From: Escherichia coli
Lineage (GTDB): Bacteria > Pseudomonadota > Gammaproteobacteria > Enterobacterales > Enterobacteriaceae
NCBI RefSeq assembly: GCF_024223415.1
Contig: NZ_CP100500.1
Direction: 5' to 3' (one strand)
Length of the DNA stretch: 64,000 nt
The position numbers are program-made. Shown piece by piece: positions 621 through 5,761 of this stretch (position 1 is the stretch's first letter; every line of letters begins with the position of its first letter).

Positions 621-3600
621 GCGGCTGGTAACAGTCCGTGGCACGGTAAACTCCACCCGGAGCAAGGCCAAATAGGGGTTCATAAGGTACGGCCCGTACT
701 GAACCCGGGTAGGCTGCTTGAGCCAGTGAGCGATTGCTGGCCTAGATGAATGACTGTCCACGACAGAACCCGGCTTATCGGTCAGTTTCACCTGATTTAC
801 GTAAAAACCCGCTTCGGCGGGTTTTTGCTTTTGGAGGGGCAGAAAGATGAATGACTGTCCACGACGCTATACCCAAAATAAAGCGGCTTATCGGTCAGTT
901 TCACCTGATGTACGTAATAAACCGTTCCGGCGGGTTTCAGATTGTTGAGTGCGCTTTATTCATGCCGGATGCGGCGTGAACGCCTTAGCCTGCCTACAAA
1001 AGCACGCAAATTCAATATATTGCAGAGATGGCGTAGGCCTGATAAGCGTAGCGCATCAGGCATTTTTGTGGTTGCCATCAGTTTCAAACCCGCGTCGATA
1101 AGTTTTTGCTTTTGGTGCACAGGGTAAGATGCATGAATATCTACGGTATTAATAATAGACTTTGTAAGAACTTATTAAGTCTATATTGCGTTTAAAAGGT
1201 CGTAATCATACGTATAGTCCTCTCTGGTAAAATATTGATTCTCTGAGTTATATGCTTCATATGTGTTATATTCCCCGACCTCAAAACCATTGTCCGGAGA
1301 ATTTTCGTTTTTCTCGAGGGTGTTATCTGAAAGTAACTCTTCTGAGCTAGAGTCTTCTATGTTTAAATCCATAGTATAATTAATTTGGGGAATGACCAGA
1401 TAAGCATTTTCTTTGATATTTTCATAATCTTCAATGATTATGTCGATATAATTATGTATTTTTTCTGATGAGAAATCTATCATCTCTGGTAATTTAATTC
1501 TGTTCAAGCAATTATTGATTTTCGATGAGCTTTTATATATTTCTTTTGTTAATTCATTTTCTAATTTATCTGTAAGAGTTGCTCTTGGTATAGATTTTAT
1601 AATTGCAAATCTCATAATTTTTAATTGTTCTTCGGTAATATCTCCAAGCTCATTTAAACAACTTTCGACAAACTTAATTTTTTCTTCAGAATACATATCG
1701 CTAATGCTTGTTAAAACAGGCGTTATTTTTAGTAAATAATCCCAGGAGATTGTGGCGTTTTGTGTTGAACTAACAAAATTAACCTGAAACATGTTGGCAT
1801 TAGTAAAATTTGTTGAATCCAATTTAAAAGGATTTAAAATGGTATTAGCCATATGTTTATCTGTAAAATCGTAATAATCTAAATCGACATTACGTAAGTC
1901 CAGAGAGGATAGATCAACGATATCTCCAGTCCCACAACTAAAGATTACGTTCAACCTCCTGATTTCATTGCAAATATGTTTCAATGGACAATTAATATTG
2001 ATATTGCCTGTGGATATTTTCTGGTTCTTTAATGGTTCATTAATGGTAAGTTCGCAGGTATTGTCCGATCGTTGAATAATTTGGGCGTTATAACCTAAAA
2101 AATCCAGACGAAGAGACGAGTCATTATAAAGAATTACATTTTGTAAGTACGCTAATTCTTTTTGAAAATCACCAGTGATAATGCATTTTCCACCTGGTTG
2201 TAACGCGTTAAGTAAAGTGACTATTTGAATAGAGGTCTGTTTTAGTTTTTCTATACCTGGTGCTAGAGCTTCGAGGTTATTTTCTATGGGGCTTTCAGGA
2301 AGATCATTCATTTTTCGACGGACTAAATCACTACTAATATCATTACCAATTGATGAAACAGGGAACATTATTTTATCCTTTATAAATAATCAATAAAAAT
2401 CATTATTAAAATGATCGGGTGAAAAAAGAGAATTTGCCAACAATCTGAAGTAATGCTGGTTTTATTAAAGTACGCAGGGGGTGTTAAGATGGCTTCTTTT
2501 CGGGTGAATTTTGCACAATACTTAGAAATCGTCTCCTTAATACATTCCAGCTCTTTTTTATTGACGGCTGAGCAAGTACATTGTTCGCCAAAAGGTGCAA
2601 AAGTGCCTACATCTAATGTTTGTATGATATAATCATCATGTTCTCCTGTAGAAATATCTATGATGAATGGACTCATATTTTCTGGTTGGATTCGGATCAT
2701 GACAGAAGGAACATCGCCTTGATAGAAGTTCAATGCAGTAATTGCAGATAATACTCTCCGCAGTTCATTACTTATACTGTATATTTTATTAACGTCATTG
2801 GTGGAGACAATTTCTGCAAACTTTCTTTTTACCGTCCAATAATCAATATTTCTATTGTGATTGTTAACCACTGCGTGCATTGGTGGGATTGAAGGGTGAA
2901 AAATATGTGCAATTGGGAAGCCTTTCATTGATGCCTGCCTTGTCGTCATGACAAACAATAATAGATGCTTATTTTCCTCGCAGGGTTCTTTCGCACTATC
3001 AAAAAACGCTCATTTACCCGGCGTTACAGTAAACGAAGCAACATTCTGTGGCCTACGCCGATCAAAAGCTTGGTGAAAATTTCCCTTGTTGTCTTTGTCT
3101 GACCTTATCGCGGCGACCAGCAATTATTCATTTTGTGATCCTCAACACAAAATGCTATTCGTCGCCTATGAGGGGAGAAGAATTTATGGAAAACGATTGC
3201 ATTCACAAAATGACGTCCTGTCAGAAGAGAAAAAGTTGACGTTAATCAATTGTTCGAGATGATCAATACCTGTATTCGAAATTTTAAAATATTGATAAAA
3301 TAAATGTTTGTTCTCCAACAAATAGCGTGAAAAAATGTGACGTGCCGCATTATTTATCGCTGAAAATGGTTTATTTATAATAAAATTTGAGAACTTGCTC
3401 ATTAAATTTAACTCAAATTTTGCCTGGTAATTATCCGGTAATTGCTTGAAATATGGTCTCAGCCCCTTTTTTGTATTAACCACATAACGAATGATGTTAT
3501 CGCCATAAAATATGGTTATCCCCGTCATTTTTTTTGACAAAAATCAGGGTTTATGCTGATTTTTATACTTTAACTTGTTGATATTTAAAGTTATTTAATT

Positions 3601-5761
3601 GTAATGACGATACTCTGGAAAGTATTGAAAGTTAATTTGTGAGTGGTCGCACATATCCTGTTCATTTCATTTTGATACACTTCATGCCGTCAATGAGGTA
3701 ATTAACGTAGGTCGTTATGAGCACTATTCTTCTTCCGAAAACGCAGCACCTGGTAGTCTTTCAGGAAGTCATTAGAAGTGGCTCTATCGGCTCGGCTGCA
3801 AAAGAATTAGGGTTAACTCAACCGGCCGTCAGTAAAATCATTAACGATATTGAAGATTATTTTGGTGTGGAATTAGTGGTGCGGAAAAATACCGGTGTAA
3901 CATTAACACCTGCCGGTCAATTGTTACTCTCCCGTTCCGAATCCATTACCCGTGAAATGAAAAATATGGTTAATGAGATAAGCGGTATGTCTTCTGAGGC
4001 GGTGGTGGAAGTCTCATTTGGTTTTCCTTCATTGATTGGTTTTACTTTTATGTCAGGGATGATCAACAAGTTCAAAGAGGTGTTCCCGAAAGCGCAGGTT
4101 TCTATGTATGAAGCGCAACTGTCTTCGTTCTTACCGGCAATCCGCGACGGTCGACTGGATTTTGCGATTGGTACGTTAAGTGCAGAAATGAAGCTTCAGG
4201 ATTTACATGTTGAGCCGCTGTTTGAGTCCGAGTTTGTACTGGTAGCCAGTAAGTCCCGAACATGCACCGGCACCACCACGCTGGAGTCGTTGAAGAACGA
4301 ACAGTGGGTGTTGCCACAAACCAATATGGGGTACTACAGCGAACTGCTTACTACGTTACAAAGAAATGGCATCAGTATTGAAAACATCGTTAAAACCGAC
4401 TCAGTCGTGACAATTTATAATCTTGTTCTCAATGCTGATTTCTTAACTGTAATTCCTTGTGATATGACGTCACCTTTTGGTTCTAATCAATTTATTACTA
4501 TTCCGGTTGAAGAAACATTACCTGTGGCACAATATGCCGCGGTATGGTCGAAAAATTATCGTATTAAAAAAGCAGCATCGGTTTTGGTGGAATTAGCCAA
4601 AGAGTATTCATCTTATAATGGGTGTAGACGAAGGCAATTAATAGAAGTTGGTTAGTTATTTGTTTTTATTTAAACATAAATAATCCACCTGTCTGTCTTG
4701 CAGGTGTCGGTTACGGTTACCTACATATTTAATTCAGGCGAAGAGGTTTTATAATGCATATTACATACGATCTGCCGGTTGCTATTGATGACATTATTGA
4801 AGCGAAACAACGACTGGCTGGGCGAATTTATAAAACAGGCATGCCTCGCTCCAACTATTTTAGTGAACGTTGCAAAGGTGAAATATTCCTGAAGTTTGAA
4901 AATATGCAGCGTACGGGTTCATTTAAAATTCGTGGCGCATTTAATAAATTAAGTTCACTGACCGATGCGGAAAAACGCAAAGGCGTGGTGGCCTGTTCTG
5001 CGGGCAACCATGCGCAAGGGGTTTCGCTCTCCTGCGCGATGCTGGGTATCGACGGTAAAGTGGTGATGCCAAAAGGCGCGCCGAAATCCAAAGTAGCGGC
5101 AACGTGCGACTACTCCGCAGAAGTCGTTCTGCATGGTGATAACTTCAACGACACTATCGCTAAAGTGAGCGAAATTGTCGAAATGGAAGGCCGTATTTTT
5201 ATCCCACCTTACGATGATCCGAAAGTGATTGCTGGTCAGGGAACGATTGGCCTGGAAATTATGGAAGATCTCTATGATGTCGATAACGTGATTGTGCCAA
5301 TTGGTGGTGGCGGTTTAATTGCTGGTATTGCGGTGGCAATTAAATCTATTAACCCGACCATTCGTGTTATTGGCGTACAGTCAGAAAACGTTCACGGCAT
5401 GGCGGCTTCTTTCCACTCCGGAGAAATAACCACGCACCGAACTACCGGCACCCTGGCGGATGGTTGTGATGTCGCCCGCCCGGGTAATTTAACTTACGAA
5501 ATCGTTCGTGAATTAGTCGATGACATCGTGCTGGTCAGCGAAGACGAAATCAGAAACAGTATGATTGCCTTAATTCAGCGCAATAAAGTCGTCACCGAAG
5601 GCGCAGGCGCTCTGGCATGTGCTGCATTATTAAGCGGTAAATTAGACCAATATATTCAAAACAGAAAAACCGTCAGTATTATTTCCGGCGGCAATATCGA
5701 TCTTTCTCGCGTCTCTCAAATCACCGGTTTCGTTGACGCTTAATTAATTCGTTGAGGATAG

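What the first reader, a model, noticed from the sequence alone, without database searches (positions are those of the whole stretch)
1128..3716. Strongly AT-rich island (yhaC, yhaB, tdcR) wedged between rnpB and the tdc operon
Base composition drops sharply, and the translations are Asn/Ile/Lys/Tyr-rich with no recognisable domains. This is typical of horizontally acquired, H-NS-silenced DNA. It sits next to a stable RNA gene, a common integration hotspot, and its small ORF tdcR is reported to regulate the neighbouring catabolic operon.
Basis: partly seen in the sequence, partly recalled or inferred. Interest (0 to 1): 0.35.

Follow-up and report, generated by a model that had tools for sequence, protein, structure and literature searches.

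The report
AT-rich yhaC-yhaB-tdcR tract of E. coli
The low-GC stretch between the RNase P RNA gene and the threonine/serine-breakdown (tdc) operon of E. coli is real and already known, but it is two things joined together: a 2-kb Escherichia-only gene pair sitting in an insertion hotspot, and an old AT-rich control region of the tdc operon that contains the small tdcR reading frame.

Summary
Window 1128-3716 has 33.3% GC against 51.9±2.0% for same-length windows elsewhere, and GC3 of 0.28-0.32 against 0.61±0.04. The window is E. coli: garK-rnpB-yhaC-yhaB-tdcR-tdcABC.

- **yhaC-yhaB (about 1150-3090)** is an orphan pair found only in Escherichia/Shigella. It lies in a gap that carries different cargo in other Enterobacteriaceae. 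No integrase or att-like repeats are present. Remnants in E. albertii and another Escherichia lineage show it is old in the genus and has been deleted repeatedly; 1,060 of 5,426 complete E. coli genomes carry one such deletion. dN/dS is about 0.3, and a rare allele class is very divergent (dS 0.5-0.6).
- **The tdc control module (3134-3716)** is ancestral and AT-rich. Across more than 12 genera it has near-constant length and is bounded by a conserved CRP-type palindrome about 583 nt upstream of tdcA. tdcR lies inside this module, is intact only in some Escherichia, evolves almost neutrally (dN/dS 0.5-0.9), and carries a stop codon in at least 558 E. coli genomes.

Published ChIP data place H-NS on both parts. 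The finding is already known, and interest is low to moderate.

The parts
417..793 (+). rnpB (RNase P RNA, class A), the left neighbour
   Evidence: Rfam RF00010, 318.6 bits, full length; annotated rnpB in KV7
744..1147 (.). Degenerate array of about 113-nt direct repeats. Each repeats the rnpB 3' end and terminator hairpin. A REP/BIME element at about 953-1080 interrupts the array. This is the variable left border of the AT-rich tract.
   Evidence: Repeat families D1-D3; sub-threshold Rfam hits to REP-derived sRNAs at 953-1040; copy number differs among Escherichia species; IS621 is inserted here in some strains
1150..3090 (.). Lineage-restricted inserted unit: yhaC, yhaB and yhaB's upstream region (approximate limits)
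   Evidence: Absent from all non-Escherichia loci and from most non-coli Escherichia. Homology of those species to the window resumes at about 3008-3122. Nucleotide identity to the divergent E. coli allele class drops to 60-89% only within about 1000-3200.
1181..2368 (-). yhaC, 395 aa, orphan 'YhaC family protein'
   Evidence: ORF; NCBIfam NF007262, 882 bits; homologues only in Escherichia/Shigella; dN/dS 0.31, dS 0.62 against the divergent allele
1733..1951 (-). Pentapeptide-repeat-like segment of YhaC (residues about 140-212)
   Evidence: Weak Pfam hits PF13599/PF00805 below cut-off. Distant YhaC-profile hits (E 1e-10 to 1e-3) cover only this segment, and those scanned are strong pentapeptide-repeat proteins.
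2380..2928 (-). yhaB, 182 aa in this window. A 1-nt deletion in an A-run at about 2421 changes the last roughly 10 residues relative to the 179-aa reference form.
   Evidence: ORF; comparison with KV7. The same frameshifted C-terminus is a common natural allele (P0076, 3,287 member sequences). PF27690 label. dN/dS 0.26.
3134..3149 (.). Distal CRP-type palindrome TGTGATCCTCAACACA, the outer boundary of the ancestral tdc control module
   Evidence: Found 574-587 nt upstream of the tdcA ATG in 42 of 44 loci, while its distance from rnpB varies from 63 to 8,661 nt. Invariant columns in alignment A2. Listed as an in-vitro CRP site labelled 'yhaB' at MG1655 3267646 in PMC12871828.
3134..3716 (.). 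Ancestral AT-rich tdc control module, about 583 nt
   Evidence: Alignable with almost no indels across 15 species of about 10 genera. GC is 29-35% in nearly all loci. Spacing between distal and proximal palindromes is 500-507 bp in 51 loci.
3184..3402 (-). tdcR, 72-aa ORF inside the control module. A longer ORF reaches 3540; some annotations use a 114-aa form.
   Evidence: NCBIfam NF008507, 176.6 bits. Homologues only in Escherichia/Shigella. Intact only in some Escherichia, with no equivalent ORF in other genera. dN/dS 0.5-0.93. S25* allele in at least 558 of 5,426 genomes.
3638..3653 (.). Proximal CRP-type palindrome TGTGAGTGGTCGCACA of the tdc promoter, 79 nt upstream of the tdcA ATG
   Evidence: Near-invariant block in A2; constant position in 51 loci. 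Its identity as the tdc promoter CRP site is from my own knowledge of the tdc literature and was not verified here.
3717..4655 (+). tdcA (LysR-type activator), first gene of tdcABC...; right neighbour and still low in GC (42%)
   Evidence: Pfam HTH_1 plus LysR_substrate; annotation; GC and GC3

Best explanation
The AT-rich tract is the known E. coli rnpB-tdc interval and has two evolutionary layers. Layer 1 (about 1150-3090) is the yhaB-yhaC pair: two orphan protein genes with no homologue outside Escherichia/Shigella. They lie in the short gap between the rnpB terminator and the outer edge of the tdc control region, a gap that has repeatedly taken up unrelated DNA in other Enterobacteriaceae. 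The pair entered before E. coli and E. albertii split, most likely by non-site-specific acquisition from an unsampled low-GC source (inferred). It stays AT-rich, is bound by H-NS (published ChIP), is only moderately constrained, and is being lost by deletion in several lineages. Layer 2 (3134-3716) is the ancestral, length-constrained, AT-rich control module of the tdc operon. It is bounded by a distal CRP-type palindrome about 504 bp from the promoter-proximal one. Here AT-richness and H-NS binding belong to normal tdc regulation, in which activators such as CRP, IHF and TdcA counter silencing (from the literature, inferred for this window). tdcR is a young Escherichia-only ORF inside this module. 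It was not imported with yhaBC, and it is under weak or no protein-level selection.
For: Composition and codon usage. Identity of the locus. Phyletic restriction: 74 YhaC, 26 YhaB and 47 TdcR hits among 5.8e9 proteins, and every source name given is Escherichia or Shigella. In 1.84e9 representatives the only full-length YhaC relative is its own family. Hotspot: of 44 loci with rnpB and tdcA on one contig, 29 have a gap of 644-1,118 nt and 15 have 2.0-9.2 kb. The 14 larger gaps examined hold differing ORF content, and Pfam identified cargo in seven of them: a PTS/sugar cluster, usher fimbriae, a decarboxylase cluster, PAAR-pyocin toxins, an MCP, a serine-dehydratase pair and a resolvase. All length variation lies between rnpB and the distal palindrome. 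Ancient presence and repeated loss: a 127-nt yhaB remnant plus its upstream region in E. albertii, and a 53-nt yhaC remnant in Escherichia sp. MOD1-EC7003. A different two-step deletion (window 1225-2036 and 2100-2825) occurs in ST131-type E. coli and is shared by 1,060 of 5,426 genomes. Real but weakly constrained genes: yhaC dN/dS 0.31 and yhaB 0.26, against 0-0.02 for tdcA/B/C. Ancestral module. tdcR: it lies within the module; its conserved start and C-terminal codons coincide with DNA blocks conserved in genera that have no ORF; no frame is consistently open elsewhere. It is disrupted in E. albertii (ATG to ATA), in L012 (stop at codon 51) and in ST131-type E. coli (S25*), and has lost its stop codon in L004, L009 and L011. 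S25* is present in at least 558 genomes, and tdcA-D are annotated intact in the strain examined. H-NS and foreign-gene predictions: PMC3661553, PMC3946193, PMC3212961 for Salmonella. Convergent IS5 insertions in the tdcA/tdcR spacer in mouse gut: PMC7518454.
Against: No donor or homologue of yhaB or yhaC was found anywhere, so 'acquired' rests on composition, distribution and location only. In-situ origin or extreme divergence is not excluded. An island this old would be expected to drift toward host GC, and it has not. H-NS occupancy was not measured here; it comes from a secondary compilation. The dN/dS values for tdcR come from 72 codons in DNA that is itself under regulatory constraint, so they are noisy and could hide selection on a few residues. 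Published genetics, recalled from memory (Hagewood et al. 1994; not readable here), reported that TdcR acts as a protein. The 53-nt yhaC remnant in one lineage is a weak match (75% identity). E. fergusonii and typical S. enterica subsp. enterica were not among the retrieved loci.
Confidence: 0.7

Rival explanations
1. One reading: the whole 1128-3716 tract, with yhaC, yhaB and tdcR, is one horizontally acquired, H-NS-silenced island that brought its own regulator of the neighbouring operon.
For: AT-richness and codon bias are uniform across all three ORFs. All three proteins are Escherichia-restricted. H-NS is reported on both the yhaC and tdcA/tdcR regions.
Against: The DNA carrying tdcR is homologous, equally AT-rich and of the same length in more than 12 genera that lack the ORF. 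Escherichia species without yhaBC still have tdcR at the same position, 315 nt upstream of tdcA. The hyper-divergent segment between E. coli allele classes ends near 3200, before tdcR.
Confidence: 0.08
2. A classical integrative island that entered by site-specific recombination into the 3' end of the stable RNA gene rnpB, as tRNA- and tmRNA-targeting islands do.
For: It is adjacent to rnpB. The rnpB 3' end is duplicated in about 113-nt repeats. The interval is variable across genera, and one Citrobacter cargo contains a resolvase.
Against: No integrase or recombinase ORF lies in 794-3716. The rnpB-end repeats are tandem on one side only, with no copy near 3100. The repeats also occur in Escherichia species lacking yhaBC. 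Genomes without the genes show remnants and differing junctions, which indicates deletion rather than excision. There is no match in phages, and the plasmid hits are mislabelled chromosomes.
Confidence: 0.03
3. yhaB and yhaC were not imported. They arose or diverged beyond recognition in place within Escherichia, from AT-rich intergenic DNA or from an older cargo gene. Their AT-richness reflects mutation bias with weak selection, or selection to keep an H-NS platform next to tdc.
For: No homologue exists in 5.8e9 or 1.84e9 proteins. There are no mobility genes. The pair is old in the genus yet has not drifted toward host GC. Evolution is fast: dS 0.5-0.6 between allele classes, C-terminal frameshift variants of YhaB are common, and yhaC is reported among the top positively selected genes. 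AlphaFold gives no confident fold.
Against: A 395-aa ORF with dN/dS 0.3 and a recognisable pentapeptide-repeat segment is hard to obtain de novo. The site demonstrably accepts foreign cargo in other genera.
Confidence: 0.17

Closest known systems
H-NS-silenced xenogeneic DNA in enterobacteria (small AT-rich islets of orphan genes in E. coli K-12)
   Same: It is much more AT-rich than the genome, has atypical codon usage and a narrow phyletic range, and has published H-NS occupancy. It has no known function and is frequently lost.
   Different: Only the yhaC-yhaB part fits. The tdcR/promoter part is ancestral regulatory DNA whose AT-richness is shared by genera that never had the island. No donor is known, and the islet is old in the genus rather than recent.
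'Promoter islands' of E. coli K-12 (Panyukov and Ozoline 2013, PMC3661553)
   Same: Two of the 78 listed promoter islands are the tdcA/tdcR spacer and an internal part of yhaC. Both are marked as H-NS-bound and associated with predicted foreign genes.
   Different: In my simple sigma-70 consensus scan, promoter-like sites were no more frequent than in dinucleotide-preserving shuffles (15 against 14.3±3.5). Composition alone therefore explains the density by that measure. Their PlatProm criterion was not reproduced.
tRNA/tmRNA-associated integrative genomic islands
   Same: It abuts a stable RNA gene, and the interval is hypervariable between genera.
   Different: It has no integrase, no flanking att repeats and no clean empty site. 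Variability is better described as a permissive gap between a terminator and a control region.
Pentapeptide-repeat proteins (Pfam PF00805/PF13599; for example Np275/Np276, Qnr/MfpA)
   Same: YhaC residues about 140-212 show roughly 10-14 tandem pentapeptides, and a YhaC profile hits genuine family members.
   Different: Scores are below Pfam gathering thresholds. The segment is about a fifth of the protein, and the rest has no detectable relatives. No structural support was obtained.
De novo (taxonomically restricted) small ORFs arising in intergenic DNA
   Same: tdcR lies in DNA that is homologous and non-coding in outgroup genera, is restricted to one genus, is short and AT-rich, and is weakly constrained.
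   Different: Unlike most candidates, it has an experimental history as a reported activator. Translation and function were not tested here.

Membership tests
Integrative genomic island at a stable RNA gene | Integrase or recombinase gene within the island | tested here: not met
   The ORF list and the Pfam, NCBIfam, PHROGs and PADLOC scans of the three ORFs show none
Integrative genomic island at a stable RNA gene | Direct repeats derived from the RNA gene's 3' end flanking both ends of the island | tested here: not met
   The rnpB-end repeats are tandem at 744-1147 only, with none near the tdc-side junction
Integrative genomic island at a stable RNA gene | Clean empty site in genomes lacking the island | tested here: not met
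   Lacking genomes keep internal remnants and have differing junctions
H-NS-silenced horizontally acquired DNA | AT content and codon usage clearly deviating from the host genome | tested here: met
   33.3% against 51.9±2.0% GC; GC3 0.28-0.32 against 0.61±0.04
H-NS-silenced horizontally acquired DNA | Restricted phyletic distribution, absent from syntenic sites of relatives | tested here: met
   Met for yhaC and yhaB. For 3134-3716 the DNA is present in all relatives, so the feature is not met for that part.
H-NS-silenced horizontally acquired DNA | H-NS occupancy in vivo and derepression in an hns mutant | not testable with these tools
   Occupancy is reported in ChIP compilations (PMC3661553 Table 1; PMC3946193). 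Derepression of yhaBC was not found in the papers read. The H-NS motif TCGATAAATT (up to 2 mismatches) is about 3-fold enriched, which is weak evidence.
H-NS-silenced horizontally acquired DNA | Identifiable donor lineage or homologues elsewhere | tested here: not met
   No homologue outside Escherichia/Shigella; nothing genuine in phages or plasmids
Pentapeptide-repeat protein family (PF00805/PF13599) | Score above the Pfam gathering threshold | tested here: not met
   PF13599 scores 14 bits against 38; PF00805 scores 10.6 against 20.2
Pentapeptide-repeat protein family (PF00805/PF13599) | Tandem A(D/N)LXX-type pentapeptides detectable by profile comparison with family members | tested here: met
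   The YhaC profile hits long multi-repeat proteins at positions about 140-212 with E down to 1e-10. All seven scanned are strong PF00805 members.
Pentapeptide-repeat protein family (PF00805/PF13599) | Right-handed quadrilateral beta-helix fold | tested here: inconclusive
   The AlphaFold2 model has mean pLDDT 36.4 and gives no usable fold
TdcR (NCBIfam NF008507 equivalog) | Score above the curated cut-off | tested here: met
   176.6 bits against a cut-off of 100
TdcR (NCBIfam NF008507 equivalog) | Acts as a protein activator of tdcABC | not testable with these tools
   Only the annotation and cited titles were available; the primary paper is not held. Comparative data argue for weak constraint.
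De novo gene born from non-coding DNA (tdcR) | Homologous syntenic sequence in outgroups that lacks the ORF | tested here: met
   Alignment A2 and ORF scans of outgroup modules
De novo gene born from non-coding DNA (tdcR) | Evidence of translation and of purifying selection on the protein | tested here: inconclusive
   dN/dS is 0.5-0.93 and the ORF is repeatedly disrupted. Translation is not testable here.

The most novel reading that the evidence does not exclude
tdcR was not acquired. It is a de novo, Escherichia-only ORF that opened inside an ancient, length-locked tdc control module of about 583 bp. That module carries two CRP-type palindromes held 500-507 bp apart (about 48 helical turns) across more than 12 genera. 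The reported 'activator' activity of tdcR may be dispensable, or may act at the DNA level, for example by titrating H-NS or another factor. The fixed-geometry module, possibly a CRP/H-NS/IHF loop, may be the real upstream regulator of the tdc operon.
Probability: 0.35. Interest if true: 0.5.

Novelty: already known. Interest (0 to 1): 0.25.

Why it matters
As stated, the finding describes a known, annotated E. coli locus. Its AT-richness, predicted foreign origin and H-NS binding are already published, so it adds little.

The re-analysis sharpens three points:

- Compositional 'islands' can merge truly acquired DNA with ancestral AT-rich regulatory DNA. Here the boundary falls at a conserved palindrome near 3134, not at tdcA.
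- The rnpB-tdc gap is a family-wide insertion hotspot that has no integrase signature.
- tdcR, listed as a transcription factor in regulatory databases, looks like a young ORF under weak constraint and is broken in at least 10% of complete E. coli genomes. This matters for regulatory-network models and for work on serine/threonine catabolism in ST131-type (B2) pathogens.

The length-locked control module with two palindromes is a testable regulatory architecture.

Tried and rejected
- **Structure of YhaC and YhaB:** AlphaFold2 on shallow alignments gave mean pLDDT 36.4 and 35.5. These models are unusable, so no fold search was run.
- **PDB sequence searches:** nothing significant.
- **PADLOC and PHROGs:** no defence or phage family.
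- **Phage collection:** no match. Plasmid hits are mislabelled chromosomes or large chromosomal fragments.
- **Tandem Repeats Finder on 600-1300:** found nothing, because the rnpB-end repeats are too degenerate and interrupted. The repeat finder did detect them.
- **Sigma-70 promoter-like and terminator-like scans:** counts were no higher than in shuffles.
- **H-NS high-affinity motif density:** about 3-fold enriched. I treat this as a by-product of AT-richness.
- **Rfam at a permissive threshold:** only REP-derived sub-threshold hits, and no RNA family in the control module.
- **Conserved ORF in the control module outside Escherichia:** none found on either strand.
- **Primary tdcR paper (PMC196961):** not held in the library. 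Statements about TdcR genetics therefore rest on memory and on citations in other papers.
- **Scripting and coordinate errors:** my first regular expression for the distal palindrome was mis-specified and returned nothing; it was corrected. An early yhaB coordinate taken from KV7 was out of frame because of the 1-nt deletion in this window.
- **T3SS-effector reading of YhaC:** considered because of the pentapeptide repeats, Ser-rich N-terminus and low GC. I found no evidence and dropped it.

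
Full report
**What is there.** The window is Escherichia coli. Region 800-3716 is 99.9% identical to strain KV7. RefSeq annotates that stretch as garK, rnpB, yhaC, yhaB and tdcR on one side and tdcA, tdcB and tdcC on the other. In window coordinates:

- rnpB is 417-793 on the + strand (Rfam RF00010, 318.6 bits).
- yhaC is 1181-2368 on the - strand.
- yhaB is 2380-2928 on the - strand.
- tdcR is 3184-3402 on the - strand.
- tdcA starts at 3717.

Between rnpB and yhaC lies a degenerate array of about 113-nt repeats that copy the rnpB 3' end and terminator (744 to about 1147). A REP element interrupts this array.

- GC of 1128-3716 is 33.3%. Non-overlapping windows of the same length average 51.9% (sd 2.0, minimum 45.3%), so this is the lowest tract in the 64 kb.
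- GC3 is 0.28, 0.32 and 0.32 for yhaC, yhaB and tdcR, against 0.61±0.04 for 33 other ORFs of the window.
- Codon adaptation to local usage is 2-4 sd low, and Asn+Ile+Lys+Tyr+Phe make up 36-46% of residues against 22%.
- The right edge is a gradient rather than a step. tdcA (42% GC), the tdcA-tdcB junction (about 36%) and tdcB (GC3 0.45) are also low.

**Are there really no domains?** Almost none.

- Pfam gives only sub-threshold pentapeptide-repeat hits for YhaC.
- A YhaC profile searched against 1.84 billion representatives found one full-length relative, its own family. Distant hits (E 1e-10 to 1e-3) fell only on positions about 140-212, in long multi-repeat proteins. All seven that I scanned are strong pentapeptide-repeat proteins. 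YhaC therefore contains a short pentapeptide-repeat-like segment.
- YhaB carries only the self-defined Pfam label PF27690.
- TdcR and YhaC match only their own NCBIfam equivalogs.
- PDB, PADLOC and PHROGs gave nothing.
- AlphaFold2 models were unusable, with pLDDT 36 and 35.5.

**Distribution.** All 74 YhaC, 26 YhaB and 47 TdcR hits among 5.8 billion proteins carry Escherichia or Shigella names wherever a name is given. There is no phage match, and the four 'plasmid' hits are mislabelled chromosomes or chromosomal fragments. Among 5,426 complete E. coli genomes:

- 4,317 hold at least 80% of the region.
- 1,060 share a specific double deletion, seen for example in ST131 strain JJ2434. It removes window 1225-2036 and 2100-2825 and leaves short remnants of yhaC and yhaB.
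- 19 carry a very divergent allele class. These YhaC and YhaB proteins are 67% and 77% identical to the window's, at the same locus.

Against that divergent class, nucleotide identity is 96-100% in the flanks, 60-89% between about 1000 and 3200, and about 93% from 3200 to 3800. dS is 0.62 for yhaC and 0.51 for yhaB, against 0.07-0.11 for tdcA/B/C. dN/dS is 0.31 and 0.26, against 0-0.02. yhaC and yhaB therefore behave as real but weakly constrained, fast-evolving genes. A published scan also ranks yhaC among the most strongly positively selected E. coli genes (PMC9110714). The C-terminal third of YhaB exists in several frameshifted versions, and the window's version is a common one.

**Comparison across Enterobacteriaceae.** A scan of one genome per species with TdcA returned 64 loci. 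I searched them for GarK, rnpB, YhaC, YhaB, TdcR, TdcA and TdcB.

- garK-rnpB-tdcA synteny is widespread.
- Of 44 loci with rnpB and tdcA on the same contig, 29 have only 644-1,118 nt between them and 15 have 2.0-9.2 kb.
- I listed ORFs in 14 of the larger gaps. Their content differs from locus to locus, and their GC is below that of the flanks in all but one.
- Pfam identified cargo in seven of them: a PTS/sugar cluster, a chaperone-usher fimbrial operon, a PLP-decarboxylase cluster, PAAR-pyocin DNase toxins, an MCP, a serine-dehydratase-like pair and a resolvase.

The interval is therefore a recurrent insertion site. I found no integrase in the E. coli tract. I also found no rnpB-derived repeat at its tdc-side end.

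**Where exactly insertions occur.** A palindrome TG(T/C)GA-N7-CACA (window 3134-3149, TGTGATCCTCAACACA) lies 574-587 nt upstream of the tdcA ATG in 42 of 44 loci. Its distance from the rnpB end ranges from 63 to 8,661 nt. All length variation lies on the rnpB side of this motif. A preprint lists the site as an in-vitro CRP site labelled 'yhaB' (PMC12871828).

From the motif to tdcA the sequence is alignable across 15 species of about 10 genera with almost no indels and with several near-invariant blocks. GC of this stretch is 29-35% in nearly all loci. The distance from this motif to the promoter-proximal palindrome (window 3638-3653) is 500-507 bp in 51 loci, including Raoultella-type loci where rnpB is not nearby. 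Window 3134-3716 is therefore an ancestral, length-constrained, AT-rich control module of the tdc operon, not part of an acquired island. Consistent with this, H-NS is reported to bind and repress tdc in Salmonella, which has none of the three genes (PMC3212961).

**tdcR.** The ORF lies inside that module.

- Non-coli Escherichia species that lack yhaBC still carry tdcR-homologous sequence at the same position, 315 nt upstream of tdcA, at 57-83% identity.
- Other genera have homologous DNA but no equivalent ORF and no consistently open frame.
- The best-conserved parts of TdcR, its start and its C-terminus, coincide with DNA blocks conserved in ORF-less genera.
- The ORF is broken in E. albertii (ATG to ATA), in one Escherichia lineage (stop at codon 51) and in ST131-type E. 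coli (S25*). Its stop codon is lost in three other lineages.
- dN/dS is 0.5-0.93 in six comparisons.
- The S25* allele is present in at least 558 of 5,426 genomes (the wild-type word is in 4,629). tdcA-D are annotated intact in the strain examined.

I infer that tdcR is a young, genus-restricted ORF under weak or no protein-level selection. Its reported activator role (annotation; Hagewood et al. 1994, cited but not readable) cannot be confirmed or refuted here.

**Age of yhaBC.**

- E. albertii keeps 127 nt of the yhaB 5' region (75.6% identity; 54% over 39 aa) contiguous with the yhaB upstream sequence and the palindrome.
- Escherichia sp. MOD1-EC7003 keeps a 53-nt piece matching yhaC 1378-1430, joined to window about 3008 onward.
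- Four other Escherichia species share a different junction near 3085-3122.

With the ST131-type deletion, this makes at least four separate loss events. It implies that the pair was present before E. coli and E. albertii diverged. It is an old, decaying islet rather than a recent arrival, yet it has stayed at 32-36% GC.

**H-NS.** I could not measure binding. Several papers bear on it:

- A published compilation lists the tdcA/tdcR spacer and an internal yhaC segment among 78 'promoter islands'. Both are H-NS-bound (yhaC in all ChIP studies considered), and both are associated with genes predicted to be foreign by Lawrence and Ochman and by Nakamura et al. (PMC3661553).
- Genomic SELEX work marks H-NS at the tdcA/tdcR spacer and a constitutive promoter for yhaBC (PMC3946193; PMC5493296).
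- Convergent IS5 insertions in the tdcA/tdcR spacer arise in E. coli colonising old mice (PMC7518454). This would fit relief of silencing, but that link is my inference.
- A phylostratigraphy paper lists yhaB-yhaC as a uniformly young operon (PMC12218254).

In my own scans, promoter-like sites were not enriched over composition-matched shuffles. The H-NS consensus motif was only about 3-fold enriched.

**Verdict.** It is wrong for the tdcR/promoter third, which is ancestral regulatory DNA. The most interesting residue is the length-locked control module with two palindromes and the possibility that tdcR arose de novo within it.

Noticed in passing
window 3134-3149 and 3638-3653; loci L009-L071: Two CRP-type palindromes upstream of tdcA are held 500-507 bp apart (504 bp here, about 48 helical turns) in 51 loci from more than 12 genera. 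The whole module of about 583 bp has almost no indels. This suggests a geometry-dependent nucleoprotein complex or loop at the tdc promoter.
   Followed up: partly
window 744-1147; L009-L013, L020: The rnpB 3' end plus terminator hairpin is repeated in degenerate units of about 113 nt downstream of rnpB. Copy number differs between Escherichia species, with at least 3 copies in L012. Here a REP/BIME element (about 953-1080) splits the array.
   Followed up: partly
L003 1828-2808 (corresponds to window about 1025-1035): In some E. coli strains an IS621 (IS110-family) element is inserted in the REP element between rnpB and yhaC. Several such strains appeared in the spread of hits.
   Followed up: no
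window about 2414-2427 (yhaB 3' end): A 1-nt deletion in an A-run, relative to strain KV7, changes the last roughly 10 residues of YhaB. The same variant C-terminus heads a cluster of 3,287 sequences, and other frameshifted C-termini also occur. The C-terminal third of YhaB therefore appears to be barely constrained.
   Followed up: partly
L004-L007 (E. coli, e.g. strain 2013C-4282); window about 1000-3200: A rare allele class (19 of 5,426 genomes) is about 80% identical in nucleotides across yhaC-yhaB while the flanks are 96-100% identical. One protein (P0030) looks like a recombinant between the two classes. The origin of this deep dimorphism (introgression or an ancient polymorphism) is unresolved.
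   Followed up: partly
window 4350-4950: The 3' end of tdcA and the tdcA-tdcB junction fall to about 36% GC, and tdcA and tdcB have low GC3 (0.42 and 0.45). The low-GC gradient therefore extends well into the conserved operon.
   Followed up: no
window 17500-18300: This is the only other spot in the window below 40% GC. It holds two paralogous small membrane-protein ORFs (118 and 128 aa, both on the - strand) separated by an AT-rich spacer.
   Followed up: no
L008 (contig CAUHML010000178.1): A 6.2-kb contig in a MAG labelled 'uncultured Bacteroides sp.' carries E. coli yhaC-yhaB-tdcR-tdcAB with a TdcA that is 100% identical. It is almost certainly E. coli contamination of the bin.
   Followed up: no
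L027 7347-8990 and L068 7178-8440: In Citrobacter braakii and Leclercia adecarboxylata the rnpB-tdc gap holds PAAR-domain S-type pyocin proteins. The C. braakii protein also has a colicin/pyocin DNase domain. This puts T6SS-type toxin cargo at the same hotspot.
   Followed up: no
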